Positions 1-16,956 of a stretch of 32,638 bases of DNA are shown piece by piece. Position 1 is the first letter of the stretch. Each line of letters begins with the position of its first letter. The DNA comes from Chitinophagaceae bacterium (lineage in GTDB: Bacteria; Bacteroidota; Bacteroidia; Chitinophagales; Chitinophagaceae). The notes beneath the pieces were generated by a model. It was not told where the DNA came from. It did not search any database and saw only the letters and a program-made list of their open reading frames with translations. The position numbers and the translations under genes are program-made. The stretch is taken from the NCBI GenBank assembly GCA_031429975.1, contig JANPAP010000185.1:1-32638 (forward strand), given 5' to 3'.

Positions 1-1648
1 CAACCAAAATTGTTGCCTTTCTGCGGTTATCATCCAGCCATTCGATTGTTTGGCCATTTATGGCTTCCCACTCCCGCCTAGCCACATCATAAACTAGTTC
101 AAGATCCTTTAAATTGCAATCTTGTTTTTTGGCTAAAATTGCCCTTGGATCTACTGCTCCGGTACGCAATGCAATAACCTGTATTGGCAAGCGATACTTT
201 TTTATCTGCAATTTCAATTGCCGTAAAACATGCTGATACGCCTTTCCGATGATCCCTTCAATTCGTAAAAAATAATAAGGCTCTAAATCAAAATTTAATG
301 GCACCCGTACAAAATCATCCGAAGAATTATAGGATTTTCCATAATAACTCAATTGCCTGTGAGCATCATTTAAAAGGGTTCGTTGATAACTCCAATGATT
401 TAATAAGGGATGGCTGCCAGCACTAACATGATAATAATAGGGAATTGATTTTTTTGATAGTAGTTCCTCATTCAACAAGCTTGGAGTAATGCGAATGAAT
501 GTATCATTTTGCTTGTCATCTATTTGTATGCTGGGTAAATAAAACTGGCCCAACATAACGGCAATTCGTTTAAATAACATTTGCAATTCGGCCACTATAT
601 TTTTTTGTACATACAAAGGCGAATAAATAAAATAATGCCGGTAAGGCAACAGCCCAAAACTTGCTGCAGGCAAGGCTTCGCCTAATAATAAATGACGTGG
701 AAACAATTTACTATCGGGGCAACAACTGCTTAAAAATGCAACCCCTATTTTCCTAAATTCCTGGTAAGCCTGTAATACATCGCTGAACAAATCGAATTGA
801 TATTGCAGAAACAGAACTTGATTTACACCGATCGTACCATCGTACAGGTATTTATATTTTGTTACCAGATTATGAAAAGGATTTAATGCAAAATCCGGCG
901 CCACTATATCGCCAAATCTGCTGTAAATATTTGTAAGTTTTATTTCTACCTCATCCAAAAACTGTTTACTCAACAACTTTAAATAAGCATTGTAAATATC
1001 CTTTGATGTTACTGGATTACTATTGGGCACATCCCATTTAGTCATTCTTATTTCGGGTAAACTGGTAAATGTATTTACCCCCAAACCTGTAGCAGCACTC
1101 CCCATCAGCAATTCTGCATCGGCCCGTGAAACTGCCATGGGCAAAAAAGACACTGCTACATTTATACCTTTATCATCGCATGAATTGGGATCACAATTTT
1201 TATTTTGATTTTCTTTTAACTCTACAAAAAGCAATATTACTTTTCCATTTAAAAAATTATTGCTGATTAAATCGGGGGCATCTTCTGTGGCAGTTTTTCT
1301 TAATTCCCAAACATCCATTTTTACTTTTTTTCCACTACCATTTAATTTGTAAAAACGATCGTAAGCCCTTGCAGTATCAACATCATATTTTTTATACCGG
1401 ATGTATTTATTTTCTTCTACAGCCACCAGATAACCCTCCGAAGTAATGCCACAACCCCGGCCAATGGTCAGCTCGGTTTTTAAATCATTAACCGATAAGT
1501 GTAATCCACAAACAATACCAATACCCACAAGATTGGTTCGGGTTATTCGGTTTTGTTCATCTAGGTAATCAAACAGATGATTCAAGTCGCCCGATGTGAG
1601 TAACTGATCGGGAACAAATTTTGGAAACTCAGTTTGTGACGGTATCAT
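1..1648 (-). CDS. Afp13/Pvc13-like eCIS tail-fibre-associated protein, 3' end outside the window (>549 aa)
   Basis: Not in the ORF track. I translated it by hand: ATG at 1648 and no stop down to base 1. It begins MIPSQTEFPKFVPDQLLTSGDLNHLFDYLDEQNRITRTNLVGIGIVCGL and contains GCGITSEGYL, CDPNSCDDKG, FPRHLLLG, IPYYY and FLRIEG, which resemble Afp13-type N-terminal motifs. Confidence 0.85.
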   Translation of the reverse strand, partial: MIPSQTEFPKFVPDQLLTSGDLNHLFDYLDEQNRITRTNLVGIGIVCGLHLSVNDLKTELTIGRGCGITSEGYLVAVEENKYIRYKKYDVDTARAYDRFYKLNGSGKKVKMDVWELRKTATEDAPDLISNNFLNGKVILLFVELKENQNKNCDPNSCDDKGINVAVSFLPMAVSRADAELLMGSAATGLGVNTFTSLPEIRMTKWDVPNSNPVTSKDIYNAYLKLLSKQFLDEVEIKLTNIYSRFGDIVAPDFALNPFHNLVTKYKYLYDGTIGVNQVLFLQYQFDLFSDVLQAYQEFRKIGVAFLSSCCPDSKLFPRHLLLGEALPAASFGLLPYRHYFIYSPLYVQKNIVAELQMLFKRIAVMLGQFYLPSIQIDDKQNDTFIRITPSLLNEELLSKKSIPYYYHVSAGSHPLLNHWSYQRTLLNDAHRQLSYYGKSYNSSDDFVRVPLNFDLEPYYFLRIEGIIGKAYQHVLRQLKLQIKKYRLPIQVIALRTGAVDPRAILAKKQDCNLKDLELVYDVARREWEAINGQTIEWLDDNRRKATILV

Positions 1649-1663
1649 TTTAATAAATTTTGC

Positions 1664-1685
1664 TTTCTGCTTTGCCGGGCAGAAA
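1664..1685 (-). other. Intergenic stem-loop between the Afp12-like and Afp13-like genes
   Basis: TTTCTGC-N8-GCAGAAA inverted repeat with no U-tract on the minus strand. Confidence 0.35.
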
Positions 1686-1688
1686 TCA

Positions 1689-4600
1689 TTAAATAATTAT
1701 ATTATCCAAAAACACCCTGTTACTGTCATCTCCATCTACGCAATCATGCAGTTTTGCATCAGGGTAAACATTTTTTAAATCGATGAAAATTTCAAGAAGC
1801 AATTCTAATAATTCGTGTAATACGGCCTCATCTATTTCATCTTTTGACAGTTCCGTAAGCCAGTTACAGTAAGCGGTTTCGAACAATGCTAATTGCAAGT
1901 TAGATACCCAACATATTTTTACTGCCAGATGAGCTGGTAATTCGGTACGGATGGTTTGCTCTGCAAAGCGGCGAAATTCAATCCCACTGTTTGCAATACC
2001 AGTTTCTCCACTCAACACTACCGTAACTCGAAATGAATAAGGGTCTTCATCCCCACAGGCATCGGCACAATTGCCCGAAGTACAAATTGGAAGCAGGGTG
2101 TCTGTCAATAAATTGTTTTTTGCAAATTCTATAATTCCATCCCGAGCTTTTTCTGCCAGCGCCTGTGTTGCAAAATGTTGTTGCCGGTATGCAATTACTT
2201 CACCGGTTTCATCCAACAAATTGATAAACCATTTTTTTTCTTTTTTAATTTGGTAATGATTAATATCTAAAATAAAATTCATCACTGCTGCAATTTCGAG
2301 CCGGGCTTTTTGTTCGGTCACTGCCAAGTGCTGGTCATAATAACGAGTACTGCTGCTGAGGTAAATTTGTTTGCCGCCTTTTAAGCGCCACCTTCTTTCA
2401 AACAATTTATTATCAACATCCAGTTCTTCATACAATTCAAAATATTTCCAAGCCGTTCTTGGGCGTAGGAGCAGGTGTTCTATAACAAAAACCTTTTCAC
2501 TTATATCCATACCCAGCAAGCGTTTTATACGAAGTTGAAGACCAGCGATATTTTCATTACTACATACTTTTAAAGTGTCTTTATAATGGATGGCCCTTGC
2601 CCGATTGGCACTCATAAAAGGAAAGTCTTTTAAAAAATTAATTTTGTCATTTATTAATTTATCCTGGGCCACTAAAATATTATCGCTGTAGGAATACAGC
2701 ATCAACGCATAGTCATTAAAATTTTCGGCAAATCGGGATAAGAGTTGATTGAGAAACCGGTTACGCCGATCTAAAAAAACGGACTTCGATTCAACTATAT
2801 TTTGCAAGTCTGCTTCGGTTATCCCATTAAATAAATCGCCGGATCCTTTTATAATTTCATTGTTTAATAAAGTGCTGAAATAGGTTTTATCAATTGCAGT
2901 ATTTAGCGAAAACAAATCTTTTACATGTGTTAACTGGCTGAGATAATTCATAAGCAATTGCTCATAAAACAACAGATATGCTTTTAATTGTTTGGCCTGT
3001 GCTTTTCGCTGTAACGAAGCCGTATCGGGCAATCCATCGTATCCAACGCCATAAGTAAGCGGTAACGAATATTGAATGGGGTAATACTCATTTAAATTAA
3101 AATGCTTGCCGTTGGGAACTGGTAAATTATTTTCGATAACCGAAAATTTGGGTTGCGTGTTTTGCCCTTTTATAACCTGTAGGGTATCGCTTAATTCAAA
3201 TTTATCTGGCAAAAATGGCAGCCCGTTTTTATACACTAAAATCTTACTTGCCTCCAAATACAACCTTGGTTGTTGATTGTAATTTACATTGATATACCAC
3301 TCGTTGCTTGCTATCAAGTTTCCATCCGTATCAAAATTGGTAAGGGTAAAACTTTTGATTGTTTTTATGCCTGCTATATCTATATCCATCAGCAGGTTTA
3401 TAATATCGGAGCTGTAAATAAATTCTTTAAGGTTTGTTGCGGCTAACTGATCGTTATCAATAAATCCATTTTCAAGAGCAGGGCCTTCAAATATTTCATC
3501 AACAGGCACTCCTTTTTCCATCAGTTCCTGCAGCGAATAAAATTTTATATCGGGACTAAAATATTGATCAATCCTATAATAAACTGTTGCCAATATTGCT
3601 TCGATATCTGCAGAGGGCTCCACTTCTATATCGGCACAAATTCCAATATCCTGCACAGCTATGGCTTTTATACTGCAATAGTCTTCGCAAAGATTACGAT
3701 GATTGTGCAATGTATTTTTTGCCTGTTGCATCAGCAAATTAGCCCGGTGAATTAATGATAAATATTTTCCAAAAATGCCAGATGCTGTTGCATCTTCAAT
3801 GGCTTGTTTGATATGACTTAATTGAATCTGCTTTCGGTCTTCATCCGATTTAAACCAAATTGTAAATGCGGTATCCGTAAAAAAAATATGCTTTTCGGAA
3901 GGAGGTTCTGTGTTTACTCTAAACTCTACCAGGATGGAATTTGCAAAAACTGGTTTTCTTAAAAGCCTTGCCAAATCGGCATCTGGTATGTTGGCATCAT
4001 CTTTTTTATTACCCGAAATTTTATCCAACTGTACGGCTATCACTTCAGAATCGGGATGCATAAAATCTTTGAACATTGCGGCCTGATCTTCCAATTGTTG
4101 CCAGGAGGGTAACCGCATTTCTATCATGGCTGTAGAAAACCCGGTAGCCACCGGAAAACTAAAATTATATTTTACTTTACCACTGTTTAAATCGCCGGTG
4201 CCTTCTTCATTATCAAACTCAATCATTACATCGTAAAAGCCTTTGATGACGATGGGTTGGGTGCCCTTGCCATTTTGATATTGTAATTTACTTTCGGCAC
4301 ATTTTACAAAAAGTTGTAGTCCATCGCAAGGGCAGTCTTTACATTTTAACCAGGCATTTTTTACGCCTTCTAAATCAATCAGTAGTTTTCTAAAATCAGC
4401 CGTGGTCCATGGGTTTACGGTAAGAATGTCTCTTGCGGTAAAAAATGCCTGTTCGCTGTAATCTTGTTGTGGTAGGTTTGATACGGGATCGGTCAGCAGG
4501 TCGATTATGTTTATATTACTTCTGTAACCAAGGTCGGTAATGGCATAACAAAGTAATTCTAAAATTGTAATGCCGGGGTCGTGCAAGTTATAATCCGTCC

Positions 4601-4712
4601 AAATATTACTTCCTAACTCTTCAATGTACTCCAGCCCTTTTTTACGCAACAATTCGTAATTGCTGGCGGCAGTAAGTACTTGTTTTTTTTGTATGGTACT
4701 AATGGGTTCCAT
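1689..4712 (-). CDS. Afp12/Pvc12-like baseplate protein (~1007 aa) with insertions
   Basis: Motifs WTDYNLHDPGITILELLCYAITDLGYR, HRNLCED, YYPIQYSLPLTYG, AKQLKAYLLFYEQ, EHLLLRP, DPYSF and ELPAHL. ATG at 4712 is preferred over TTG at 4715. Confidence 0.9.
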   Translation of the reverse strand: MEPISTIQKKQVLTAASNYELLRKKGLEYIEELGSNIWTDYNLHDPGITILELLCYAITDLGYRSNINIIDLLTDPVSNLPQQDYSEQAFFTARDILTVNPWTTADFRKLLIDLEGVKNAWLKCKDCPCDGLQLFVKCAESKLQYQNGKGTQPIVIKGFYDVMIEFDNEEGTGDLNSGKVKYNFSFPVATGFSTAMIEMRLPSWQQLEDQAAMFKDFMHPDSEVIAVQLDKISGNKKDDANIPDADLARLLRKPVFANSILVEFRVNTEPPSEKHIFFTDTAFTIWFKSDEDRKQIQLSHIKQAIEDATASGIFGKYLSLIHRANLLMQQAKNTLHNHRNLCEDYCSIKAIAVQDIGICADIEVEPSADIEAILATVYYRIDQYFSPDIKFYSLQELMEKGVPVDEIFEGPALENGFIDNDQLAATNLKEFIYSSDIINLLMDIDIAGIKTIKSFTLTNFDTDGNLIASNEWYINVNYNQQPRLYLEASKILVYKNGLPFLPDKFELSDTLQVIKGQNTQPKFSVIENNLPVPNGKHFNLNEYYPIQYSLPLTYGVGYDGLPDTASLQRKAQAKQLKAYLLFYEQLLMNYLSQLTHVKDLFSLNTAIDKTYFSTLLNNEIIKGSGDLFNGITEADLQNIVESKSVFLDRRNRFLNQLLSRFAENFNDYALMLYSYSDNILVAQDKLINDKINFLKDFPFMSANRARAIHYKDTLKVCSNENIAGLQLRIKRLLGMDISEKVFVIEHLLLRPRTAWKYFELYEELDVDNKLFERRWRLKGGKQIYLSSSTRYYDQHLAVTEQKARLEIAAVMNFILDINHYQIKKEKKWFINLLDETGEVIAYRQQHFATQALAEKARDGIIEFAKNNLLTDTLLPICTSGNCADACGDEDPYSFRVTVVLSGETGIANSGIEFRRFAEQTIRTELPAHLAVKICWVSNLQLALFETAYCNWLTELSKDEIDEAVLHELLELLLEIFIDLKNVYPDAKLHDCVDGDDSNRVFLDNIII

Positions 4713-4715
4713 CAA

Positions 4716-7700
4716 TTAATGAGTAGGGTTGTTTTGTTGATGACTGGCACTTGTTGCAATGCATTCCACTGCGGTATTAGCAGACTGAAATGAACTTGGC
4801 AGCGCTGATAATATTTCATGATTGGATGCTGGTTTTGAAACCAAAATACTCCTTGCTGTTGATGCAATAATTTCATCAGCATCTATAGCTAATGGAATAT
4901 TTGCTGCACTAAAATGTGCCATCCTAACGTCGGTAATAAAATCTACATAGGGCCTTTCTTCAATAAAATTTATAAGAACGGACTTGTATAATTTTCCACC
5001 AAAATTTATTTCACCGGCACCATAAGCCCATGGCGAAAGAAAGGAAGTGATCTCATTCTTGAGTTTATTAGAGTAAAGTGTAAAATCATCGAAGCCTTTT
5101 ACAAGTTGCAACCTGAAGGATAATTTCACTTCTTCGAAAAAAGGATTTACTACATGTAACTTAACATGGCAGGATATTTTTTTACTTAAATAAATTTGGA
5201 TGGCTTTTAATATCCGCTGGCTGGTAAATGGTTTTAAAGGATTAATATCATTGCGCTGTCTTAAATCGGGCACACTAATAATGGTTACATGCCCCGGCAT
5301 TACTTCGTTATAATCCGCATTTACACTTAATGTATGGTTTAAACATTTTACTTTATGTATTTGAGGAAATGCTTCCAAAATAAGTTTTTCGTAATCCCAG
5401 ATGGTAATAGCACGGGCTTTGTGCCTAAGGCGCTCACTTACCCGAACATAAAAAGCTTCGGCAGTTTCGGATGTTCTGCCGCCAAATGAAGCATAGGGTT
5501 GATTGATTTTTTTTATGGCCGATTGGGGTTCCTTAAGTTTATTGATACTGCCTGCGGGCAAGGCATTGTTTAAAAAATTGCTGGCATTATTATTATCGGC
5601 AAATGAAACAAAAGCAGCCTGTGCCTCAACAGAAATTAATTTACAAATTGCATCTGAATATTCCGAAACGGCAGCCCTTAGCCATAAATATCCCGCCGGC
5701 AACATCGTATTTTCAATAGTTGCATCTTCTGGAATAATAAAACTGATAATGCCTGATTGTATTAACTGCATGGTAGCATCACTAAACTGTTGCTGTGTAA
5801 AATCTTTCCACTCATTACTACTCAGGTAACTCCAACGGATATGCTCTACAGACTTACTGATGGTGGGATTAGCCGATCCATCTAATACCTGAAACAAAAC
5901 ATTTACGGATTGATTTGATTCTAAATTTTTAAACCCGATATAAAATTCTCCTTCATGTGGTATGCTCGTTCCATTTTTTTTATGAGCAAATTGAGGCAGT
6001 AAATACTGATCACTTTTATGGTTTAAAAATGCATGTTGCTCTGTATCTCCAAAAGGATACAAGTGAAAAAAATTGGCAGCTTTATTTTGAAAATTATTTT
6101 TATTGTTGGAGGTTAAATCTATTATATCACTGTTGGCCTCGTAACTAATAAAAAGCGATTTTAATAAAGGGAAATAGGGCTCTACTCCTGGAAACAATGT
6201 GGCCGTTACACCGGGTTTTGAATTATTAATAAGATGCAGGGTGAGATCGGCTAAATAATTTTTGTACCCAAAATCAGATTTTAAACCCACTTGCAAAAAC
6301 CCGTTTTTTGATTCTGTATTAAGGTCGGGATAGGATTCATTAAAAGGCAGCGTGGCGGTGGCGGGGATATTTATTTGCTTTGATTGAAATTTTGAATCTG
6401 TAGTAAATGCCGGTATCGTTTCTATATCTGGTATTACAGTATCTGTATCATCAAAAATACTCCAATTGCCATTTTTTAAAACACGGGCTGAAAGGTCAGG
6501 CACATCAGATTTTGGAGCAGTTGCCGGGCTATCATATTTTATATTATTGAGTGTTGGTAAATCGGCCCACTCCATATTTAACCAAAGGCCCACATTTTTT
6601 TTTGTAAACAATTCTTTGTTGCCAATTGTAAACGACGCATCTTTTTTGGGTTGTCCGCCAAAAGGTTGAAAGGGTTTTGATGGATCAATTTTTCCTCCGT
6701 CGGTACTTACATTCAACATTTTTAAACCATCCGTATTATAAGCTGAGCTACTCCCTACTGTTACATCCAACTCTAATTTTGAAACAGTAATATTTTTCAG
6801 TTTTTCAAATTCAAAAGGAAGGTTTTCTAATTGTACTAATATCACTTTTACAACAGGCACATTTACTTTTAATGTACCACCATGCACTGTTGCATCATAA
6901 TTAGAAATGGCCGGTTCGCCGCCGCCCATACTAAATGAAAATTCGGCACAGGACTCGTTGTTTTTTAATTTGGCAGTATGATCAACAAATAACCCTGACG
7001 ATGGCTGGTACCAACCTTTTTTAGTTGTTACAAAAACTTCGTACCGCTTATTTTTTGAAGTTAGATTATCGAGTAACAAATTATTACTTGTTGACAATTT
7101 TAATTTTATAAAACGGAGCCCTTCTTGTAAAAACAAATAATGGCTGGCAACAGCAAACCCTATTTGAGCAGGGGGCATTTTTAATGCAACCAATTTGCCC
7201 TCATTAAATTGTTTGTTGGCAATTGGATGCCATTCCTTGTTAGCAGCTGTAAGTGCTTCGCCGATCCCATCATCCGAATTAATCATTGGCGCTGCAAACA
7301 TGCGACCGTTGTTAATAATATTTATGGGATAATCATCTGCTGCCTTTCCTATATACACCGAACGCAGGCTTTTTACCAATGCCTTATTAAATGTAGTTTC
7401 ATGTTGAAGGGTATAATGCAAATCCTTTTCCTCACTATCTTTTCCTGCTTTAAACAAACTGTTGTTTTGTAAAATATGGCCTGATACCGGCTTTGCCAGC
7501 TCGGCAATAATGTGGGCATTATTGGGTATGGCAGCCCGTTGCTTTAATTGCAATACTTGTTTATAATAAAAATCGAGATGCCTTTTTGTAATACTGTTGA
7601 TATCATTTTGGGCTAATCGAAACAAGCGCAAAAATGTAAGGAATAATGCATAATGAGCCGGATGGGTATTACGGTTTTCTAAACTTTGCAAAAGATTTTT

Positions 7701-8561
7701 TTCGGCATCATTTACTAATTTGCTAAAGGCCATTAAAAACTGATCGAAAATAGAACTGAACAAATTATGGTTGGCTGCATGATTCATTTTCATAAACTGC
7801 AACCATTGAGCCTGGGTATAATTAATATTTGGTTGGTACAGGTTTTTAAAAAATAAATCAAGACTGTTATTTCCAAAAATGCTTGTATCCTTAGAAATGG
7901 CATTGTAAAATTCGTTCCATGTTTCAATTGCCGGGCCAGATTTCCACCATAATTTACTGAGCCCAATTTTTTCAATTACTTCTTTTGCATCTTTTACTTT
8001 GCGGCCAAGTATGCTCCAATTTTTAAACTCAGCAGTTTGTAAATAACCAAGTTCTTCTGCAGCTTTATAGTATCGTAATAACCTTGATAATGCTGGCGCC
8101 AAAAAAGTTTTTATTTGATTTTCGATACTTGTTTTCATGGAAATATCTGCCGGTAATAACCGATAAAATTCATCCAATGCTGCACAAAAAACAAGGATGC
8201 CAGCAAACATTTCGTTCAACACAATACTGGCTTTATTTAACTCAACAACATGGCTGTCGTTTTTTAAAAAATCAAAAAGCGATTTAATTTTTTGTTTATA
8301 GGCAGCTACGTCCTGAATGGCAATGGTGCCCAAAACGGCAGAAACATCATTTTCGAAAAACGGCACCCAATCGCCACTTTGCTCATTATTTAATTCGTAA
8401 AAATGCAGGTAGGCAGCATACTCTTTTGCAAACACAATCCAATCTGCAAACTTTTTTTCATCAACCAGTACATATCCATTTTGCATTGCAGGCAGCAACC
8501 TATCGGCCTGAGAGCTACCCGACCTTTGCAATGGATTTTTTTTATCGCTACATTTTGCCAT
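4716..8561 (-). CDS. Afp11-like baseplate J/gp47 family protein (1281 aa)
   Basis: PAHYALFLTFL, RHLDFYYKQVL, F.AGKD, SFGGR..E...FYVRVSERLRHKARAITIWDYEKLILEAFP and FIEERPYVDFI. Confidence 0.92.
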   Translation of the reverse strand: MAKCSDKKNPLQRSGSSQADRLLPAMQNGYVLVDEKKFADWIVFAKEYAAYLHFYELNNEQSGDWVPFFENDVSAVLGTIAIQDVAAYKQKIKSLFDFLKNDSHVVELNKASIVLNEMFAGILVFCAALDEFYRLLPADISMKTSIENQIKTFLAPALSRLLRYYKAAEELGYLQTAEFKNWSILGRKVKDAKEVIEKIGLSKLWWKSGPAIETWNEFYNAISKDTSIFGNNSLDLFFKNLYQPNINYTQAQWLQFMKMNHAANHNLFSSIFDQFLMAFSKLVNDAEKNLLQSLENRNTHPAHYALFLTFLRLFRLAQNDINSITKRHLDFYYKQVLQLKQRAAIPNNAHIIAELAKPVSGHILQNNSLFKAGKDSEEKDLHYTLQHETTFNKALVKSLRSVYIGKAADDYPINIINNGRMFAAPMINSDDGIGEALTAANKEWHPIANKQFNEGKLVALKMPPAQIGFAVASHYLFLQEGLRFIKLKLSTSNNLLLDNLTSKNKRYEVFVTTKKGWYQPSSGLFVDHTAKLKNNESCAEFSFSMGGGEPAISNYDATVHGGTLKVNVPVVKVILVQLENLPFEFEKLKNITVSKLELDVTVGSSSAYNTDGLKMLNVSTDGGKIDPSKPFQPFGGQPKKDASFTIGNKELFTKKNVGLWLNMEWADLPTLNNIKYDSPATAPKSDVPDLSARVLKNGNWSIFDDTDTVIPDIETIPAFTTDSKFQSKQINIPATATLPFNESYPDLNTESKNGFLQVGLKSDFGYKNYLADLTLHLINNSKPGVTATLFPGVEPYFPLLKSLFISYEANSDIIDLTSNNKNNFQNKAANFFHLYPFGDTEQHAFLNHKSDQYLLPQFAHKKNGTSIPHEGEFYIGFKNLESNQSVNVLFQVLDGSANPTISKSVEHIRWSYLSSNEWKDFTQQQFSDATMQLIQSGIISFIIPEDATIENTMLPAGYLWLRAAVSEYSDAICKLISVEAQAAFVSFADNNNASNFLNNALPAGSINKLKEPQSAIKKINQPYASFGGRTSETAEAFYVRVSERLRHKARAITIWDYEKLILEAFPQIHKVKCLNHTLSVNADYNEVMPGHVTIISVPDLRQRNDINPLKPFTSQRILKAIQIYLSKKISCHVKLHVVNPFFEEVKLSFRLQLVKGFDDFTLYSNKLKNEITSFLSPWAYGAGEINFGGKLYKSVLINFIEERPYVDFITDVRMAHFSAANIPLAIDADEIIASTARSILVSKPASNHEILSALPSSFQSANTAVECIATSASHQQNNPTH

Positions 8562-8576
8562 GGTAAATACTGATGA

Positions 8577-9011: not shown

Positions 9012-9017
9012 TTTGTA

Positions 9018-9305
9018 TTAATTAATGATTACTGTTGGACAACCTAAAATAATTACCCCGCCATGTGCAGTGCTATCGCCTTGCCTTGCTGCTGGAGCAC
9101 CTGCTACCATTACAGTTGCCGACCCTGCTGCTATGGTATCGGGCGGACCTGTACAGGTAAGCATATCGCCCACTTTTGCAGCCGGCATTCCTGCAATCAT
9201 TACGGTTACTGCACCTGGAGGTATTACCGGGCCACCCACATGCGGCACGGTACCGGTTACTAACGGACAAGTGTGCATGTCGCCTACTCTTGCTGCTAAT
9301 GGCAT
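9018..9305 (-). CDS. PAAR domain spike-tip protein (Afp10-like)
   Basis: Three repeats LAARVGD, PAAKVGD and PAARQGD, with His/Cys residues suited to metal binding. Confidence 0.97.
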   Translation of the reverse strand: MPLAARVGDMHTCPLVTGTVPHVGGPVIPPGAVTVMIAGMPAAKVGDMLTCTGPPDTIAAGSATVMVAGAPAARQGDSTAHGGVIILGCPTVIIN

Positions 9306-9322: not shown

Positions 9323-11071
9323 TTAATTTAAATTCACCATACTTCCTTTTACATTGGTGGTACCCCCGCTGGAAATTTCTGCACCACTACCTCCTTCTAC
9401 TTTTGTTTGAGCACTTCCTTTTACATTCATATTTGTTCCTTCCATTTTTACATCGCCACTTGCTTTCATTTTAATATCCTTTATACTCTCTATAATAATT
9501 CCATCTTCACTCATCGATATTTTATTTCCATTCATATCTTCTAATTCAATTTTTTTCTGGTCCTCATCAATAATAATTTTATGGCCACCAGGTGTTTCGA
9601 TATTGATTGATTTTTTTTCATCATTAAAAATCATTTTCATTTTGCTGCGGCTTACATAGCCTTTTTCATGATTATCATCTGCAGCTGTTATGGGTGCCGG
9701 CAGTGCACTGCTGTTTAACATGCCCAACACAATGCCGTGCCGGGGATCGTTGTTAATAAATCCTACAATCACTTCATCATTTATTTCGGGCCTAAAAAAA
9801 AAGCCTCTTTCATTTCCTGCATCTAATGAACTAATCCTGCACCAAGCTCCTTCATCATCTTTATGTATTATGGGTATCCTTACCATTATTCTATCTTCTC
9901 CATCGGGGTCGGCTTCTAATTTTGTTACTACCCCAATTTGCAAGCCTTCAATGGCTGGAAGCAATGCTGCAGCCATTGGCTGTTGTACATTAAAGGATTG
10001 AGCAAACCATTCGGGGTTAATACCAAACTGGATATTGGTTTGCCAGTTGCCGTTTTCGTATTGATGACCTACTGCAGTTACATACAATTTTCCTTCAAAT
10101 CGATCGCCCACTCCTTTCAATTCTATTAACTGGCCGGGTAACACTGCTGCAGTACCATCAATTTTTACACTCCCTCTTATTTTTGCCAGGCGGTGTCGCA
10201 TCATTTTTGCATTTATCCATTGTTGTAATTCGGGTGCTTCAATTTTTCCGCTATGAAAAAGATTCAATCCATCGGCGCCTAAAACATCCGCAAGTGTACT
10301 GGCATCCAGGTTTCCTGCAGCGGGCAGTTGGGGTTCTTCTGCTTCCTGATCGGCCAACAATTCCTGATCGGTATAATTCCACATATTCCCTTTTACTGCT
10401 TTGTACTGAAGCCTTGCATCAATGGTTGCATCTAATTCATGTACGGTTGCTCCATATTGGATGGTAAGGGCAATTGCCCCAGAAAAATTTGGTTTTTTTA
10501 TACTTAGTTTTCCATCATTACAAAAACACAGCATGCCATTTACATCGGCACGGCACATTATAAAATCCCAGTCGCTGCAATTATATTGTAACAGCTGCTT
10601 ATGTTTTACGGTGGTTACATCCACTTCCTTATCCAGCCGGTAAGTGTCAATCAATTGCTCCATCACTTCGCTATCTTTCATTTCTTTAAAATAATTACTC
10701 TTATATTTTGCCGTCATCTTTGCGGCTTTGTCTTTGCAATCAATAATTAAGAGGGAGCTTTTTTTTCTGGTTTTAATACTATGTTTTACTACAATGCCTT
10801 TAAAAATGGTTTCTTCACTGCTTTGATAACCCAACTTTATTTCAATTTCTTTTCCGGGTTCAAAATCTGGCTTATTGCTAATGTCGAAAGTTTGCGTTGC
10901 CGGGTCGCCATCAATCATGATGATCGTTGCAGATGCAATTCTGTTTACTTCTTTATTTACTAATACAGAAATGATATGATGTGCCCTCGAAACTTCTGCA
11001 CTGCCAGAAAGGATGGTAGCCGTAACTACGGTTTTTGGTTGATCTGATGGTATGGTTCTTTCGTTTGGCAT
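9323..11071 (-). CDS. vgrG: VgrG/gp27-gp5 spike protein (Afp8-like)
   Basis: QYNCSDWDFIMCRAD (gp27-like), AGNERGFFFRPEINDEVIVGF (gp5 OB fold) and C-terminal beta-helix repeats. Confidence 0.95.
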   Translation of the reverse strand: MPNERTIPSDQPKTVVTATILSGSAEVSRAHHIISVLVNKEVNRIASATIIMIDGDPATQTFDISNKPDFEPGKEIEIKLGYQSSEETIFKGIVVKHSIKTRKKSSLLIIDCKDKAAKMTAKYKSNYFKEMKDSEVMEQLIDTYRLDKEVDVTTVKHKQLLQYNCSDWDFIMCRADVNGMLCFCNDGKLSIKKPNFSGAIALTIQYGATVHELDATIDARLQYKAVKGNMWNYTDQELLADQEAEEPQLPAAGNLDASTLADVLGADGLNLFHSGKIEAPELQQWINAKMMRHRLAKIRGSVKIDGTAAVLPGQLIELKGVGDRFEGKLYVTAVGHQYENGNWQTNIQFGINPEWFAQSFNVQQPMAAALLPAIEGLQIGVVTKLEADPDGEDRIMVRIPIIHKDDEGAWCRISSLDAGNERGFFFRPEINDEVIVGFINNDPRHGIVLGMLNSSALPAPITAADDNHEKGYVSRSKMKMIFNDEKKSINIETPGGHKIIIDEDQKKIELEDMNGNKISMSEDGIIIESIKDIKMKASGDVKMEGTNMNVKGSAQTKVEGGSGAEISSGGTTNVKGSMVNLN

Positions 11072-11082: not shown

Positions 11083-11751
11083 TCAATTTTTTACTATTGG
11101 AGGAAAAAAAAGTTCTTCCCCTGGTTGCAGTTTTCTAAAATTGCTTAACCCATTTGCTGCTGCCACTTGCAAATAATATTTGGAATGGCCATAAATGCGG
11201 TAACACATCAGCGGAAGTGTATCGCCTTTTTTAATGGTTCGATAATGAGTTAGATCAGGGCTGCTGTTTCTTTCTTCTGCAACCCTTCTTTCATCGTCTT
11301 TCATTTCCCGGATGGTAACTTTGCAAATAGCTCTTATGGGAGTGCCATCGGGTTTAAATAATTTATAGGCGATGCTTAATGAAATACAAATTCCTTTTAC
11401 CAAAGCCTCTCCCCAAACGAATTTGAAAAATCTTGGGCGATGAATATCTCCATCGTACTTCATTAAAAACTCTTTGATATCTTTTAATTCCTTTGCAACA
11501 TTTGTTCGCATTGGATCAATGATACCAGTATTATCAAATAACAATTCAAAGGAAAGTTCTTCGGGAGGTTTTACAATAAATTTTGCTGCTGTTGCTGAGG
11601 TTCCCTGCCCCTGTGCTGCCTGAAATTCCATCTTTGTTTCCAGCGTATAATTTTCCGGATTCATCATGGCAATAAAGATTTCTTTTTCTTCATTGCATTC
11701 CGCATCGGTACAAGAAATAATTTTTAATTTTTCAAGATGTCCGTTTACCAT
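11083..11751 (-). CDS. Afp7-like tube initiator with C-terminal LysM domain (222 aa)
   Basis: NPENYT, L.FDNTG, LFKPDGTPIRA and SPDLTHYRTIKKGDTLPLMCYRIYG...VAAANGL. Start moved to ATG 11751 because the upstream small gene ends at 11753. Confidence 0.92.
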   Translation of the reverse strand: MVNGHLEKLKIISCTDAECNEEKEIFIAMMNPENYTLETKMEFQAAQGQGTSATAAKFIVKPPEELSFELLFDNTGIIDPMRTNVAKELKDIKEFLMKYDGDIHRPRFFKFVWGEALVKGICISLSIAYKLFKPDGTPIRAICKVTIREMKDDERRVAEERNSSPDLTHYRTIKKGDTLPLMCYRIYGHSKYYLQVAAANGLSNFRKLQPGEELFFPPIVKN

Positions 11752-11752
11752 A

Positions 11753-11929
11753 TCAACGTTCTTTTTTATGATCAATAATTCGTAACACTTCTTCAACGGC
11801 CTGGCTAATGAGGGCTTCTTTATCATCGGCAACCCCAGGCGAATTTGTTGTACCGGCGGGGCTGGCCGTTGTTTGTTGCTCTTGATTAACGGTTGCTTTT
11901 ATTACCAATTCCCTAATTTCAATCGGCAT
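11753..11929 (-). CDS. Afp6/Pvc6-like small protein (DUF5908-like, 58 aa)
   Basis: Below the ORF-track cutoff. Hand translation gives MPIEIRELVIKATVNQ...DDKEALISQAVEEVLRIIDHKKER*. It fills the tube-to-LysM gap, with 5 bp and 1 bp spacers. Confidence 0.88.
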   Translation of the reverse strand: MPIEIRELVIKATVNQEQQTTASPAGTTNSPGVADDKEALISQAVEEVLRIIDHKKER

Positions 11930-11934
11930 GTTTT

Positions 11935-12393
11935 TTATTTTAAATTGAAATATTTATATGCCAGATCCATCGACTCTATCACCAGACTATTTTCCTGAGC
12001 ATTAAAATCACTTACACTCCATTTTTTTGGCCATGCACCAATTATTTCCCAATGCTTGATGGCCTGATGTTTTTCATTAAGTAATTGAACATTGATGGTA
12101 ACTGGATGAAACGTTTCAAAGTCACGGTCGTGCAATATTCCCAATACCCATTTAATCAGTTTAGAATCGTTTAAGAAACCTCTTTTCAATGAGAGGTCGG
12201 GATATTTTGACCGGACCGGCAGCTTATGTTCAAACCGGTTTTCGCCCCCTTCTTTAAAACTTTCGGTATCATATTCTACCGTTAATCCGGAAACTGATTG
12301 AAAGCGGATATCGTTATCGTTTCCAATACCAACAAATTCCACTCTGAAATGAAAGCCAACAGGTGGATAATATCCGCCGGGTGCTGTTGCCAT
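11935..12393 (-). CDS. Phage T4 gp19-like tube protein (Afp5-like)
   Basis: YYPPVGFHFRV, EGGENRFEHKLP, LSLKRG and AWPKKWSVSDFNA. Confidence 0.95.
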   Translation of the reverse strand: MATAPGGYYPPVGFHFRVEFVGIGNDNDIRFQSVSGLTVEYDTESFKEGGENRFEHKLPVRSKYPDLSLKRGFLNDSKLIKWVLGILHDRDFETFHPVTINVQLLNEKHQAIKHWEIIGAWPKKWSVSDFNAQENSLVIESMDLAYKYFNLK

Positions 12394-12457: not shown

Positions 12458-12886
12458 TTAATTTAAAATATTCAAGCCTTCATGCGCCAGTTCCAGGGTT
12501 TCGATGGCCACTTCATTTCCATCGCTTTTTAAATCGCTTGCCTGCACTTTTATTGGGAAGGCATTTTTTGCTTTCCAGGTCATAACAGGCACATGCGTTT
12601 CGTTCAGGAGGCTGATAATAATATCCCTTCGTTCAGAAACGGTGAGGCTGATGGTATTTATCCATTTGTAAAATTCACTGTCACCTTGTATGGTGCCTCT
12701 TTTTAAAGTGATGTTGCTGAATTTGTGCATGCCGGGCATTTTTATTTTTGAATATTCGGGGCTGCTGCCTTCCCGATATTCGATTGCTTCTACCTGCATA
12801 TCGAGACCCGTTACTTCGGTAAAACCAATTCTAACTCCACCCCATTGTACCAGGAAATGAAATTTAGGAAGAGGATATGTTGCCAT
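12458..12886 (-). CDS. Phage T4 gp19-like major tube protein (Afp1-like)
   Basis: YPLPKFHF.V, IEYREG, KMPG..K.SNITLKRG and NEVAIETLELAHEGL. Confidence 0.96.
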   Translation of the reverse strand: MATYPLPKFHFLVQWGGVRIGFTEVTGLDMQVEAIEYREGSSPEYSKIKMPGMHKFSNITLKRGTIQGDSEFYKWINTISLTVSERRDIIISLLNETHVPVMTWKAKNAFPIKVQASDLKSDGNEVAIETLELAHEGLNILN

Positions 12887-12890
12887 GATT

Positions 12891-13000: not shown

Positions 13001-13004
13001 AGGC

Positions 13005-15104
13005 TTAACTTTCTGCCATTTTATGAGAGAACTGTAGTATGATAAATTCGGCTGGGCGAACAACGGCCATACCAATTTCAACAATCATCCTACCTTCTAA
13101 AATATCCAGTGCTGTCATTGTTTTTCCTAAACCAACGGCCACATAAAAAGCATGTTCGGGTTTGGCACCTTGCAAGGCGCCTTGCCTCCATAAAACGGTC
13201 AGAAAATTTTCTATCATTCCCTGTACTTTTACCCAGGTGTTGGCATCGTTTGGTTCAAATACAAAAGGCTCGGTAGATTTTTTACAACTCTCTTCAACCA
13301 TGTTAAAGAAACGGCGAACACTTACATACCGCCATTCATTATCATTTCCCATTAAAGTTCGGGCACCCCAAACCAAAGTTCCTTTACCGGTAAAACTGCG
13401 AATGGCATTTATTGATTTTCCGGCAACTGCATCCACATTTAAATTTGATTGTTCATCGGCTGTAACCTGTTCGGCTGGTCCCGAAACGGAGTTGATGCTT
13501 TCGTTAGCAGGCGCTTTCCATTCACCTCTTGCATTATCAACCCTGGCATATATGCCTGCAACAGCGCCACTGGGAGGTATCAGGCTAAACTCTTTCTTAA
13601 TATTCTTTACAATATTGCCAATTACCGGATGCCCATCATACAATAATTTTTGAGTAACTGATTTATAATTATCTGCTGAGTTAATAATGCTTTCTGTAAA
13701 CAAAGCCAGTTTTTCAAAAGCAGCCCTGATATCTTTTTCAATAATTAATGCCAACTCTTTTTGTACTGCAATTGCTCCACCATTATTATAATCCTTACCT
13801 GCATCCTCCACAGTATCTCCATCAATATCATTTATTACCAATGCGGCTGTACTGCCCAGCCAGCTTGTATCAATGGATGCATACAATGCATTAATATCAT
13901 TTCGAGCTACTACTCCAGAAACAGTCCTTGCATCATCATTTTTTTCTATCTTAATTAAATCAATAACAGCCCCCCTCCAATAGGATGCAGACATGGCATA
14001 GGAGTTTACATCATTGGTTAAATTGGTAGATGAAAAATCTGTTTTCCAGGTTTGCAATTTGATAGCAGAGCGCCTTACAAAAAGTAATAGAATATTAAAT
14101 GCAATAGGCACTGCAGCACCAGAAGCGGCTTTCAAAATATCTACAAACTGTTTGTAACGATCCCTTACCGTAGGAGCGGTTAAGGGTAAAGCTGCATTGG
14201 TTACTGTTCCATCTGCAGCAGCATCGCAAATGGCATTGATTGCCGAACTGACATCTGACTGATCCTGTACTGCATCTTCCAAATTAAGCACCAGTTCATT
14301 TATTTTATTATCGGTAGTTAATGTGGCCAGCGTTACTGGTGTAACTTCATCCGATTCGAAAACACTGGATGCAAATTGCTCAAACGCTACCTCCGATGGA
14401 TAACTATGATACAGCCAAGGTGTATAAGCAGCTGCATATTTTAAATTATTGATCCCGATACTATTCCTAAATTCAACAACTGCAGCTTGCACATTATCTG
14501 CTTCCAATTCTTTTAAATCCAATATCGAAAACCGGTCTTGCAACTTAGCACATTGGGAAATGGCCATTTGTTGCAAACTGTAAAATACTGATGCATCAGC
14601 TAACAGTACTGCATCTGGAAATAAAATAATTGTAGGTTCATCATATTTTTCTAATGCCTTTACCCCTACTCTTAATCCCCTGCTGTTTACCGGATCATTT
14701 TCATCACCTGGTTCTACTTCGTTATTAGCTCCGGTATTATCAACAAATAATCCAACCGCAACAATGTAACAGTCGCCGCCACCGTTATCAAAAAACAGTC
14801 TTAAACTGTCGTACATATAAAAACGGTTACCAGCATCAATTCCAATTCCCAACACAGCATAATTATTATCTTCATCGGTAGTTACTGTTATGGAATCGGG
14901 CACTTTTGATTTTCCATAATAGTTGATAAATTCCACCATACTTGAAATTCGTAAAGGGATATTGATGAGCGACCCACCCTTTCTTTCTGCTTTTTCGGTA
15001 TAACCCACAAATGCAGGAATCGCTGTTTCCACCTGTGCCACAGAAGGGGGCAGCTTTGGAATTTCTTCAACATATACACCCGGGGTTTTGTACGTTGTTG
15101 CCAT
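13005..15104 (-). CDS. Contractile tail sheath protein (Afp2/3/4-like, 699 aa)
   Basis: YKTPGVYVEEI, TAIPAFVGYT, PPSGAVAGIYARVD..RG.WKAPAN, WGARTL, WRYVSVRR, FEPNDANTW and PAEFIILQF. Confidence 0.97.
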   Translation of the reverse strand: MATTYKTPGVYVEEIPKLPPSVAQVETAIPAFVGYTEKAERKGGSLINIPLRISSMVEFINYYGKSKVPDSITVTTDEDNNYAVLGIGIDAGNRFYMYDSLRLFFDNGGGDCYIVAVGLFVDNTGANNEVEPGDENDPVNSRGLRVGVKALEKYDEPTIILFPDAVLLADASVFYSLQQMAISQCAKLQDRFSILDLKELEADNVQAAVVEFRNSIGINNLKYAAAYTPWLYHSYPSEVAFEQFASSVFESDEVTPVTLATLTTDNKINELVLNLEDAVQDQSDVSSAINAICDAAADGTVTNAALPLTAPTVRDRYKQFVDILKAASGAAVPIAFNILLLFVRRSAIKLQTWKTDFSSTNLTNDVNSYAMSASYWRGAVIDLIKIEKNDDARTVSGVVARNDINALYASIDTSWLGSTAALVINDIDGDTVEDAGKDYNNGGAIAVQKELALIIEKDIRAAFEKLALFTESIINSADNYKSVTQKLLYDGHPVIGNIVKNIKKEFSLIPPSGAVAGIYARVDNARGEWKAPANESINSVSGPAEQVTADEQSNLNVDAVAGKSINAIRSFTGKGTLVWGARTLMGNDNEWRYVSVRRFFNMVEESCKKSTEPFVFEPNDANTWVKVQGMIENFLTVLWRQGALQGAKPEHAFYVAVGLGKTMTALDILEGRMIVEIGMAVVRPAEFIILQFSHKMAES

Positions 15105-15133
15105 GATTGTTTTTTTATTTAATGATAAATGAA

Positions 15134-16354
15134 TTAATAGTTGATATAAATATTACAGAAATAATCAGCATCAATTTTTGTGAGCATCCCCGCTGTATTT
15201 ATATCAGGATTAGGCGCCAGCGGAGGTTCTCTACTTATTGGACGGGTAAGATTTAATTTAAATTCGTACGGCTTTTGCTTTAATGCGATTGGCTTAACAG
15301 ATGTAAATAAATCTGCTGGATTTGCATTGGCATTAAACTGATTTGCAGGAACAGTATCGATAGACTGTACTCCTTTTTTGGGAATAAAATATTTCCAAAA
15401 TGCCAGGCGATTTGCAAACCGAATGCTATAAGTAAGCCATAAATTTTCGCCGGTAGCAATAACAATTCGATCTTTTAATTTCCCATCATTTGGTGCTCCT
15501 TGAAAAAATGAAAAATCATTTCCGTTAGGCAGGTGGTTATACAATTCAATTACTCCAAACATATTGCTGTACACTGCATCATTGCTTACATAAACCAAAA
15601 ATTCTTTTCCATTAATCAGAACTTTATATTTTGCTTCATCCAGTTTAGTTAAATCGACCGATAATTTATTTACCGGTTCTTCAAAACTCATGGTTTGTGA
15701 TAAAACCAACTCATCAAATAAATTATTCTGCAGATTTAATTTAAAAACCTGTACATCTACTTTTTCAGAAACAGGTAATACCTCAAATGAGCACTGTTGC
15801 TGAATAAATGAAATCAAATCATCGGTTGATGCATATTGATTTTTATTCCGGCTCATCCAAAAAATTGAATTTGCGGCGGGTGCATTTCCTGCAGCCGTTT
15901 GTTTAATACATTCAAACACTTCATTTGAATGTACTACCAAACTACCTGGGCTGTAAATATTCAATGGCTGATAAGCTGCTACTTGCTTTGATAAATACAA
16001 AAAATCATTGGTAACTACAGCCGTTTTATTTTGATACAAGTTGGTAAAATAAAAACGCTTTGCTTTTAAATTTTGTAAATCCAAATTGCTAATCGTCATA
16101 AATACGGGATTCAACAATTCCAGATAAAAACAAAATTTATCTTTTGCATCCGGTTGTATAAATGGTTTTGAAAACTCATTATTTTTTACAAGCACAATCA
16201 ACTTATTTCCTACAGTTTTTATTATTGCATTGTAATTGCTTAGCAATTTTTTGGTTGCAGCCGTGGGTATCAATTTAAAATCGGCACACATTCCATTCTC
16301 GTAAAAATCGTGGAGTACTTCAATTGCAAATAATATTTTAAAAGAAGTGTTCAT
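15134..16354 (-). CDS. Putative eCIS cap-adaptor protein (Alg16B-like by position), with a CBM5/12-like insert
   Basis: Lies between cap and sheath with an ATGA overlap to the cap gene. Has LF.IEV.HDFY at the N-terminus, F.NR...WKY and LAPNP near the C-terminus. Confidence 0.6.
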   Translation of the reverse strand: MNTSFKILFAIEVLHDFYENGMCADFKLIPTAATKKLLSNYNAIIKTVGNKLIVLVKNNEFSKPFIQPDAKDKFCFYLELLNPVFMTISNLDLQNLKAKRFYFTNLYQNKTAVVTNDFLYLSKQVAAYQPLNIYSPGSLVVHSNEVFECIKQTAAGNAPAANSIFWMSRNKNQYASTDDLISFIQQQCSFEVLPVSEKVDVQVFKLNLQNNLFDELVLSQTMSFEEPVNKLSVDLTKLDEAKYKVLINGKEFLVYVSNDAVYSNMFGVIELYNHLPNGNDFSFFQGAPNDGKLKDRIVIATGENLWLTYSIRFANRLAFWKYFIPKKGVQSIDTVPANQFNANANPADLFTSVKPIALKQKPYEFKLNLTRPISREPPLAPNPDINTAGMLTKIDADYFCNIYINY

Positions 16355-16956
16355 GAAAGGGGTTGCTTTAATTTATCATTTAATTGTATTTCCTTTATAA
16401 ATCCAGACTGGCTAATCACCTTATTTTCATCTACTGTTAGCTGCCTGATTTTATACATTACGCAAGGCATGTATTTTCCTCCCAAAATGCTCCATAAGTG
16501 GTTTGACTGTTCAAAACTAAGGCTGTACAGATCAACCACTAATTGCTGAATTCTGTTATCAAGAGCGGGGTGAGTACTGGGCGTAAAAACATGCTGCTGT
16601 TGAAAAAACTGAATGATGAAACCTAAAATAGAAAGCGACTCATCGTATGATTTACGGTTCATTGCAAACAGCACATACAGATTAATATAAACAGGTGGAT
16701 TTTTATAAATGGTTTTGATATCGGATTTAATATAATTTTCTTGTTGTTTCGAAATTCGATCTTCCTCAACATTTACCAAACTCAATACTGCTTTGCCTTT
16801 CATCTCTGGGCTAATAGTATCTGCAGGTAAATTTTCTGCTGCCAGTGAGATATTACTTACCACTAAACGGGCAACATTTATATCTACACTTGGCACCTTA
16901 TTATTTAAATAATTATTTATTTCTGTTGCCAGAAATTGTAAACTTTCGTTTATCAC
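16351..16956 (-). CDS. Afp16/Pvc16 cap (tail terminator) protein, DUF4255
   Basis: GTG start, LSLVNVEED, PPVYINLYVLF, FFQ, HLWSILGGKYMPCVMYKIR. Confidence 0.92.
   Translation of the reverse strand: MINESLQFLATEINNYLNNKVPSVDINVARLVVSNISLAAENLPADTISPEMKGKAVLSLVNVEEDRISKQQENYIKSDIKTIYKNPPVYINLYVLFAMNRKSYDESLSILGFIIQFFQQQHVFTPSTHPALDNRIQQLVVDLYSLSFEQSNHLWSILGGKYMPCVMYKIRQLTVDENKVISQSGFIKEIQLNDKLKQPLS

What the first reader, a model, noticed from the sequence alone, without database searches (positions are those of the whole stretch)
1..16956. Intact-looking AlgoCIS-type extracellular contractile injection system in a Chitinophagaceae-like genome
Seen: 13 co-directional ORFs with no evident frameshifts, several abutting or overlapping, covering cap, sheath, tubes, initiator, spike, PAAR and baseplate. 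Known: this set and order define eCIS (Serratia Afp, Photorhabdus PVC, Pseudoalteromonas MAC, Algoriphagus AlgoCIS, Bacteroidales BIS). The single sheath, extra post-cap gene and enlarged baseplates point to the AlgoCIS type. Inference: this is an uncharacterised member with unknown target and cargo. The class itself is not new.
Basis: partly seen in the sequence, partly recalled or inferred. Interest (0 to 1): 0.8.

Follow-up and report, generated by a model that had tools for sequence, protein, structure and literature searches.

The report
Swappable injection-needle cassette in sediment bacterium
A sediment bacterium carries an unbroken gene set for a known kind of phage-tail-like protein syringe, which likely injects toxins into neighbouring bacteria, and in related species the same chromosomal position holds different syringe types or none.

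Summary
Confirmed. Window 2-16956 holds 13 co-directional genes of a clade Ib contractile injection system (CIS): cap, cap adaptor, one sheath, two tubes, plug, initiator, spike, PAAR, gp25, Alg11, Alg12 and an Alg19-type fibre. The host is probably Ferruginibacter (Chitinophagaceae).

The window is one whole contig. The locus continues on C47 (fibre tip, tape measure, start of a peptidoglycan-binding gene; join bridged by a public contig) and probably C181 (AAA ATPase). No head genes were found. The cargo is not assembled. Close relatives carry DUF4157 polymorphic cargo, some with nuclease-like tips and one with a SMI1/KNR4-like neighbour, which points to bacterial targets.

Differences from AlgoCIS:
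- The cap adaptor is tCIS-type, with a CBM5/12-fold module (1-3 copies in homologues).
- Alg12 has a 165-residue insert with no structural match.
- A swappable cell-wall hydrolase gene follows the tape measure.

The locus sits in a fixed rsmI to M1-peptidase slot. In the genus, 27 of 71 cap-bearing genomes use this slot. It holds about five deep CIS lineages scattered over the host tree, or is empty. Verdict: a new variant of a known kind, of moderate interest.

The parts
17297..17962 (-). rsmI, 16S rRNA methyltransferase; conserved upstream flank of the slot (not part of the CIS)
   Evidence: TIGR00096 above cut-off; cap lies under 7 kb downstream of rsmI in 27 of 71 cap-bearing genus genomes
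16351..16956 (-). Cap / tail terminator, short Alg16A type, 201 aa
   Evidence: Pvc16_N E 4e-33; Alg16A is 197 aa (PMC8894135)
15134..16354 (-). Cap adaptor, Cis16B type, 406 aa; residues 124-171 (window 15842-15985) have a CBM5/12 fold, residues 181-257 an Ig-like fold
   Evidence: phmmer to All3326 E 5e-11; AlphaFold2 pLDDT 92.7; Z 31.7 to 7b5i_AB and 16.2 to 7adz_1A, Z about 7 to chitin-binding domains; PF02839 in 20 of 78 homologues at E up to 0.1
13005..15104 (-). Single contractile sheath, 699 aa, Alg2-sized
   Evidence: Phage_sheath domains; AlgoCIS sheath (692 aa) E 1e-134, All3325 E 1e-130
12458..12886 (-). Inner tube (Alg1 type)
   Evidence: Phage_T4_gp19 E 2e-47
11935..12393 (-). 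Second tube protein / initiator (Alg5 type)
   Evidence: Phage_T4_gp19 E 2e-42
11753..11929 (-). Plug (Alg6 type), 58 aa
   Evidence: DUF5908 E 2e-17; assignment to Alg6 rests on position and size
11083..11751 (-). Tube initiator (Alg7 type) with C-terminal LysM-like part
   Evidence: CIS_tube E 2e-48; Phage_tail_X weak
9323..11071 (-). VgrG-like spike (Alg8 type), 582 aa
   Evidence: Phage_base_V and Phage_GPD; TIGR01646 above cut-off
9018..9305 (-). PAAR tip
   Evidence: PAAR_motif E 3e-24
8577..9011 (-). gp25-like baseplate (Alg9 type)
   Evidence: GPW_gp25 E 1e-21
4716..8561 (-). Baseplate/cage protein (Alg11 type), 1281 aa, with about 200 extra residues (75-280) relative to Alg11
   Evidence: Alg11 E 5e-149 over residues 4-74 and 277-1243; Cis11 E 1e-136; insert distribution
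1689..4712 (-). Baseplate wedge (Alg12 type), about 1007 aa, with a 165-residue insert (window 3720-4214) lacking in Alg12 and Cis12
   Evidence: Cis12 E 1e-135, Alg12 E 5e-112; alignment jumps from query 170 to 329 against 166 to 183; insert pLDDT 94.4, best Z 4.6 and no Foldseek hit at E 0.001
2..1648 (-). N-terminal 549 aa of an Alg19/Cis19-type tail fibre, cut by the contig end; about 1320 aa in all with the PKD/Ig-rich part on C47
   Evidence: 9wt0_a (1443 aa, the length of Alg19) E 2e-41, All3314 E 2e-36; C47 overlap; PKD domains; one public contig covers window 1-9133 and C47 1-583

Best explanation
The locus encodes an AlgoCIS/tCIS-class contractile injection system that is predicted to form free syringe particles, likely released by lysis and likely used to inject polymorphic toxins into neighbouring bacteria. 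Shown: the full structural gene set, the fibre with PKD/Ig domains, the tape measure, the start of a peptidoglycan-binding gene and an AAA ATPase next to the far flank of the slot. Inferred, step by step from AlgoCIS: (1) tube, sheath, cage baseplate and two-part cap assemble on the 480-aa tape measure, giving about 110 nm; (2) the ATPase threads DUF4157 cargo into the tube; (3) the cell-wall hydrolase helps lyse the producer; (4) the fibre binds a cell surface and the sheath contracts; (5) a nuclease-like cargo tip poisons the target, while an immunity gene protects kin. The cargo genes lie in an unassembled gap and are inferred from close relatives. The cassette sits in a fixed rsmI to M1-peptidase slot, where whole CIS types are likely exchanged or lost between lineages.
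For: Structure. Continuation and join. ATPase on C181 with Walker A and B motifs, followed by an M1-peptidase homologue, 78-82% identical to the ATPases of the nearest loci. Cargo in relatives: eCIS_core in 11 of 11 large cargo proteins scanned, PT-TG in 6 of 11, Endonuclea_NS_2 in 4 of 11 but all below cut-off. The gene after the cargo in the nearest relative is 56% identical to a protein whose Atlas structure neighbours are Knr4/Smi1-like, TM 0.64-0.76. A cell-wall hydrolase gene follows the tape measure in 11 of 14 same-type loci, with CHAP, Amidase_2 or M15 catalytic types. AlgoCIS binds and fires on a bacterium through Alg19 (PMC13314943). Alg15 loads cargo and Alg14 sets length at 0.229 nm per residue (bioRxiv 10.64898/2026.05.27.728243). 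Slot.
Against: No cargo gene was found in this assembly: PF13699 0 hits against 4 of 4 relatives, and no hit with relatives' cargo proteins. C181 has no sequence overlap with C47, so its link rests on synteny. AlgoCIS particles killed none of the bacterial strains tested (PMC8894135). Pfam gave no SMI1/KNR4 hit for any putative immunity gene, and the three candidates are only 17-25% identical to each other. Only 55 aa of the hydrolase are assembled here, three same-type loci lack it, and no holin was seen in the assembled parts. The hydrolase could be cargo rather than a lysis enzyme. There is no expression evidence.
Confidence: 0.6

Rival explanations
1. Same particle, but aimed at eukaryotes in the sediment (protists, fungi, small invertebrates), as MACs, Afp and PVC are.
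For: PKD/Ig fibre tips are discussed as eukaryote-related adhesion modules (PMC12923769). The cap adaptor carries a module with the fold of chitin-binding domains. Clade Ib includes MACs, which kill insect cells (PMC8894135). Nuclease cargo could act in any cell.
Against: A SMI1/KNR4-like gene follows the cargo in the nearest relative. Some relatives' cargo carry CHAP-like, PG-binding or OmpA domains. Alg19 binds bacteria. The CBM module sits at the end opposite the spike, and its conserved aromatics (Y134, F/Y147, W166) look like core residues.
Confidence: 0.2
2. A cell-attached device, anchored inside the producer like T6SS subtype iv or tCIS through the Alg11/Alg12 inserts, or tethered outside by the CBM-bearing cap.
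For: Cap adaptor and Alg12 are closer to tCIS than to AlgoCIS. Alg12-like proteins are an evolutionary hotspot for anchoring and array formation (PMC8894135). The 165-residue insert has no known fold match. The CBM module occurs in 1-3 copies.
Against: There is no Cis13-type gene between Alg11 and Alg12, which are 3 nt apart, and that gene carries the tCIS membrane anchor (PMC8894136). No structural protein exceeds a 19-residue hydropathy of 2.0. A cell-wall hydrolase gene fits release.
Confidence: 0.12
3. A silent or decaying cassette that has lost its cargo and makes no useful particle.
For: No cargo in the assembly. Loss happens at this slot: G357 keeps only a 193-aa tape-measure remnant, and the nearest relative's locus is split after the tape measure.
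Against: All ORFs are open here and in four runs' contigs. pN/pS is low. The assembly is in 664 pieces with N50 6.3 kb, and a public contig runs about 2.5 kb past the end of C47.
Confidence: 0.07
4. The tail region of a prophage.
For: Phage tail families match several genes.
Against: CIS-specific families Pvc16_N, CIS_tube, DUF5908 and CIS_TMP are present. No PHROG head protein matches apart from an endolysin-labelled family. No Terminase_6N or Phage_portal in the assembly. Housekeeping genes flank both ends.
Confidence: 0.01

Closest known systems
AlgoCIS of Algoriphagus machipongonensis (clade Ib eCIS; PMC8894135, PMC13314943)
   Same: Short cap plus cap adaptor, one sheath of about 700 aa, plug, cage-sized Alg11, Alg19 fibre with Ig/PKD tip, tape measure and AAA ATPase; two DUF4157 cargo genes in most same-type relatives.
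   Different: Cap adaptor of 406 aa against 284 aa, with CBM5/12-fold and Ig-like extras; about 200 extra residues in Alg11; a 165-residue insert in Alg12; a cell-wall hydrolase gene after the tape measure (the AlgoCIS paper's main text has no 'amidase' or 'peptidoglycan'); freshwater sediment host.
Thylakoid-anchored CIS (tCIS) of Anabaena PCC 7120 (PMC8894136)
   Same: Cis16B-type cap adaptor (Z 31.7, 360 residues aligned), Cis19-type crown N-terminus, Cis12 as best match of the wedge protein.
   Different: No Cis13 transmembrane anchor gene; longer sheath (699 against 484 aa); the host is not a cyanobacterium.
MACs and Amoebophilus T6SS subtype iv (clade Ib)
   Same: Plug and cage are shared according to PMC8894135.
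   Different: MACs lack Alg19 homologues. Arrays and membrane attachment were not testable here, and no sequence comparison with them was run.
Pseudomonas tailocin hot spots mutS-cinA and trpE-trpG (PMC4684702)
   Same: Headless phage-tail clusters of different ancestry occupy a fixed interval between housekeeping genes, with a peptidoglycan hydrolase gene.
   Different: Those are cargo-less R/F tailocins with holins; here the slot holds cargo-loading eCIS types in Chitinophagaceae.
Afp and PVC (clade Ia)
   Same: Core tube, sheath, spike and baseplate homology.
   Different: Several sheaths, a one-piece long cap, no cage and no Alg19; much weaker matches.

Membership tests
eCIS (Afp/PVC/MAC/AlgoCIS superfamily) | Core set: tube, sheath, spike, PAAR, gp25, baseplate J, Pvc16 cap, AAA ATPase | tested here: met
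   ATPase on C181 linked by synteny only
eCIS (Afp/PVC/MAC/AlgoCIS superfamily) | No phage head or packaging genes | tested here: met
   Two families searched in the whole assembly with working controls and PHROG scan of the locus; the assembly is 88.7% complete and the gap is unseen
eCIS (Afp/PVC/MAC/AlgoCIS superfamily) | DUF4157 cargo in the locus | tested here: inconclusive
   Not in this assembly; present at the expected place in relatives
eCIS (Afp/PVC/MAC/AlgoCIS superfamily) | Free particles released from cells | not testable with these tools
   Needs EM or tomography
AlgoCIS-like clade Ib | Short cap plus separate cap adaptor | tested here: met
   201-aa cap; adaptor model matches Cis16B Z 31.7 and Alg16B Z 16.2
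AlgoCIS-like clade Ib | Single sheath protein | tested here: met
   One sheath gene in the assembly by tblastn; best match Alg2
AlgoCIS-like clade Ib | Plug (Alg6) | tested here: met
   58-aa DUF5908 gene between second tube and initiator
AlgoCIS-like clade Ib | Cage extension in Alg11 | tested here: met
   Continuous alignment to Alg11 residues 89-1025, spanning the cage domain 278-643
AlgoCIS-like clade Ib | Alg19-type fibre with Ig-rich C-terminus | tested here: met
   join bridged
AlgoCIS-like clade Ib | Placement in clade Ib on a sheath or spike tree with reference systems | not tested
tCIS (membrane-anchored) | Cis13 gene with transmembrane helix between Cis11 and Cis12 | tested here: not met
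   Alg11 and Alg12 are 3 nt apart; no strong hydrophobic segment
Classical T6SS | VipB/TssC-type sheath | tested here: not met
   PF05943 absent from the assembly, control rings in E. coli; the sheath is phage-type
T6SS subtype iv | Inner-membrane attachment and arrays | not testable with these tools
   Needs cryo-tomography
CBM5/12 chitin-binding module (cap adaptor 124-171) | CBM5/12 fold | tested here: met
   Six chitinase or chitin-binding domains at Z 6.9-7.3, 43-51 residues, rmsd 1.0-2.6; PF02839 in 20 of 78 homologues, though not in the window's own protein
CBM5/12 chitin-binding module (cap adaptor 124-171) | Exposed aromatic residues and chitin binding | tested here: inconclusive
   Positions 150-160 hold no conserved aromatic; that characterised modules bind through exposed aromatics there is recalled, not from a call

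The most novel reading that the evidence does not exclude
Chitinophagaceae keep a dedicated chromosomal slot between rsmI and an M1 peptidase gene in which entire eCIS types, each with its own cargo, immunity and lysis genes, are swapped like tailocin cassettes. The type found here is a distinct antibacterial subtype whose carbohydrate-binding cap tethers particles to a surface with the spike pointing outward, and whose baseplate carries a domain of unrecorded fold.
Probability: 0.25. Interest if true: 0.72.

Novelty: new variant of a known kind. Interest (0 to 1): 0.47.

Why it matters
The natural targets of AlgoCIS-type systems are still open. This subtype pairs a variable toxin tip, a likely immunity gene and a lysis-type enzyme, and it has a cultured carrier (Lacibacter luteus), so target and release can be tested. 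A fixed slot holding about five CIS types gives a natural comparison set for which parts travel together. The carbohydrate-binding-fold cap module and the unmatched baseplate domain are new structural variations on a platform now used for protein delivery. The class itself is well described.

Tried and rejected
Finding the cargo: no hit in the assembly by PF13699, tblastn with two relatives' cargo or a third cargo. No contig-end overlap for the C47 3' end or either end of C181. Two metagenome scans and one genome scan found nothing.

Expression: no RNA holder listed, which is no evidence either way.

Promoters and terminators: counts equal shuffles, 21 against 20.5 and 4 against 4.5. Rfam finds only the tRNA.

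Putative immunity genes: no Pfam or PDB sequence match. The profile search returned no annotated homologue.

CBM module: no PDB sequence match using a two-copy homologue.

Alg12 insert: no fold match in PDB or BFVD; this does not prove a new fold. The Alg11 insert was not folded.

The one-clade test for type E did not finish.

Second CIS copy in this genome: rejected, since every gene hits only C185, plus the 200-nt C47 overlap.

Paper searches with no relevant result: Ferruginibacter with contractile injection, 0; CIS with rsmI, 0; five-term clade Ib search, 0; hotspot search gave unrelated papers; lysis search gave nothing specific in the listing. Earlier scan findings: none.
Full report
Observation. 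The window is all of contig C185 in a 664-contig, 3.35-Mb, 88.7%-complete assembly. Thirteen minus-strand ORFs fill 2-16956 with gaps of -4 to 118 nt. In order they are cap, cap adaptor, sheath, two tube proteins, plug, initiator, spike, PAAR, gp25, Alg11-like, Alg12-like and an open-ended fibre gene. Best solved relatives are AlgoCIS for sheath, Alg11 and fibre, and Anabaena tCIS for Alg12 and the cap adaptor. Contigs from four sediment runs cover all 30 bins and list no frame-breaking indel. pN/pS is 0.05-0.40 against three related loci.

Host. Same-genus genomes share contigs with records titled Ferruginibacter, and the nearest named spike relatives are Ferruginibacter, Lacibacter, Terrimonas and other Chitinophagaceae at 76-81%. 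The genus name is therefore an inference. Eight DNA runs from two studies hold the locus; seven are labelled sediment or freshwater sediment, and one may be the source.

Beyond the window. C47 overlaps the window end by 200 nt at 95% identity, with 7 synonymous and 3 non-synonymous changes, which is probably strain variation. One 9,516-nt public contig covers window 1-9133 and C47 1-583, so the join is real. C47 encodes the fibre C-terminus with three PKD domains, a 480-aa CIS_TMP and the first 55 aa of a PG_binding_1 protein. That fragment is 78% identical to a PG-binding plus M15 peptidase of a congener. C181 holds the last 356 aa of an AAA ATPase followed by an M1 peptidase homologue. No cargo is assembled. 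No Terminase_6N, Phage_portal or VipB was found.

What fills the gap in relatives. In same-type loci the order after the tape measure is usually hydrolase, large DUF4157 cargo (1,300-2,100 aa), sometimes a small gene, one or two small DUF4157 cargo, ATPase. The hydrolase is present in 11 of 14 loci, counting this one, and is CHAP, Amidase_2 or M15 type. It is absent in G224, G226 and the split locus of G141. All 11 large cargo scanned have eCIS_core, 6 have PT-TG, and 4 have sub-threshold Endonuclea_NS_2 hits; their C-termini differ. The small gene after the cargo in G141 is 56% identical to a protein whose predicted-structure neighbours are Knr4/Smi1-like. That SMI1/KNR4 proteins act as immunity proteins for nuclease toxins is recalled knowledge. 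Pfam itself did not label these genes.

Structural variations. The cap adaptor model (pLDDT 92.7) matches Cis16B over 360 residues (Z 31.7, rmsd 2.8) and Alg16B over 237 (Z 16.2). Residues 124-171 have the CBM5/12 fold. The module occurs once in 71, twice in 5 and three times in 2 of 78 homologues. The tCIS paper's main text has neither 'carbohydrate' nor 'chitin', although Cis16B aligns across this module. Binding is untested. Alg12 has a 165-residue insert found in 32 of 43 homologues and missing from Alg12 and Cis12. It folds confidently (pLDDT 94.4) and has no match above Z 4.6. No Cis13-type anchor gene is present.

The slot. Pvc16_N occurs in 71 of 339 genus genomes, and 66 of the 70 others also have a sheath homologue. 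In 27 of the 71 the cap lies under 7 kb downstream of rsmI on the same strand; 7 have it elsewhere on the same contig, 36 on another contig, and 1 lacks an rsmI hit. Of 14 slot loci read to their far end, 12 finish at the M1 peptidase; G168 and G005 do not. In 17 of 18 genomes that I picked without a cap there (not a random draw), M1 follows rsmI within 2.7 kb. One of them keeps a tape-measure remnant. Three non-Ferruginibacter loci, including Lacibacter luteus, use the same upstream flank.

Swapping. Slot residents fall into about five lineages by spike tree and gene sizes, with 41-49% spike identity between this type and most others. This type groups (support 99) with Lacibacter, Sediminibacterium, Mucilaginibacter and Prolixibacteraceae loci rather than with other Ferruginibacter slot residents. 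On a tree of four flanking genes the five types need 12 changes among 27 genomes; the minimum is 4, the shuffled mean is 14.5, and 22 of 500 shuffles give 12 or fewer. One fully supported seven-genome clade holds three types and two empty slots. Hosts of this type are rejected as a clade (p-AU 5e-19). Caveats: quick trees, long branches, three genomes typed without a spike in the same stretch, and flank genes that may recombine with the cassette. An ancestral tandem array with differential loss is not excluded, but no slot read to both ends held two systems.

Mechanism. By homology to AlgoCIS the particle assembles with a caged baseplate and two-part cap (PMC8894135), is sized by the tape measure at about 110 nm and loaded by the ATPase (bioRxiv 10.64898/2026.05.27.728243), and binds cells through the Alg19 fibre (PMC13314943). 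I favour bacterial targets (0.6 for the whole model) over eukaryotic targets (0.2), an anchored mode (0.12), decay (0.07) or prophage (0.01). The identity as a clade Ib-like CIS is close to certain; release, target and cargo are inferred.

Papers seen: PMC8894135, parts 1-4 of 12 of the text plus passages; passages only for PMC8894136, PMC13314943, PMC8213781, PMC12923769, the bioRxiv preprint and PMC4684702; all others as search listings. No supplements were opened, and they may list these loci. PMC8213781 reports eCIS in 89% of sequenced Chitinophaga, so the class is common in this family. My searches found no paper on Ferruginibacter CIS or the rsmI slot.

Verdict. A real and apparently intact system, a new variant of a known kind. 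Its interest lies in the slot, the cap module and the testable antibacterial hypothesis, not in the class.

Noticed in passing
window 17297-32638: The rest of the window is housekeeping: rsmI, purS, CDP-alcohol phosphatidyltransferase, aminopeptidase P, PEP carboxykinase, CoA transferase subunits, glycosyltransferase, aldo-keto reductase, esterase, GH3, tRNA-Lys at 29685-29758, SDR, SAM hydroxide adenosyltransferase and an ECF sigma factor.
   Followed up: partly
window 1-200 and C47 1-200: The contig overlap is only 95% identical; public contigs carry either allele set, so the assembly mixes strains.
   Followed up: yes
window 12891-12930: Two 18-nt direct repeats lie between sheath and tube genes; one run's contig has several small indels in this spacer.
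   Followed up: no
window 17040-17068: The best sigma-70-like site (10 of 12) lies upstream of the cap gene, but the total count equals chance.
   Followed up: partly
L008, L026, L027 (G013:C12): Two different CIS loci lie back to back away from the rsmI slot, one with two sheath genes; the slot itself is empty in this genome.
   Followed up: partly
L127, L128, L131 (type E loci): One slot type has no Alg19 homologue: Alg12 is followed directly by the tape measure, and the ATPase precedes the cargo.
   Followed up: no
L137:3610-4191 in oriented coordinates (G357): A tape-measure C-terminal remnant sits in an otherwise empty slot, a likely deletion scar.
   Followed up: yes
L065: A record titled as a gammaproteobacterial methanotroph carries a spike nested among Prolixibacteraceae sequences, next to a truncated Alg11: transfer or misbinning.
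   Followed up: no
L055, L059, L060, L076, L078: Chryseobacterium loci have three sheath genes, two copies of the main tube gene, no cap-adaptor hit and a divergently placed tape measure.
   Followed up: no
L092:13282-13731 and G167:C58 22163-22615: A 150-aa gene on the opposite strand follows two cargo proteins with similar C-termini; it has no Pfam match and is a possible immunity gene.
   Followed up: partly
L105, L106, L108, L109: The M15-type hydrolase also occurs away from the tape measure or outside CIS loci, so it moves independently.
   Followed up: partly
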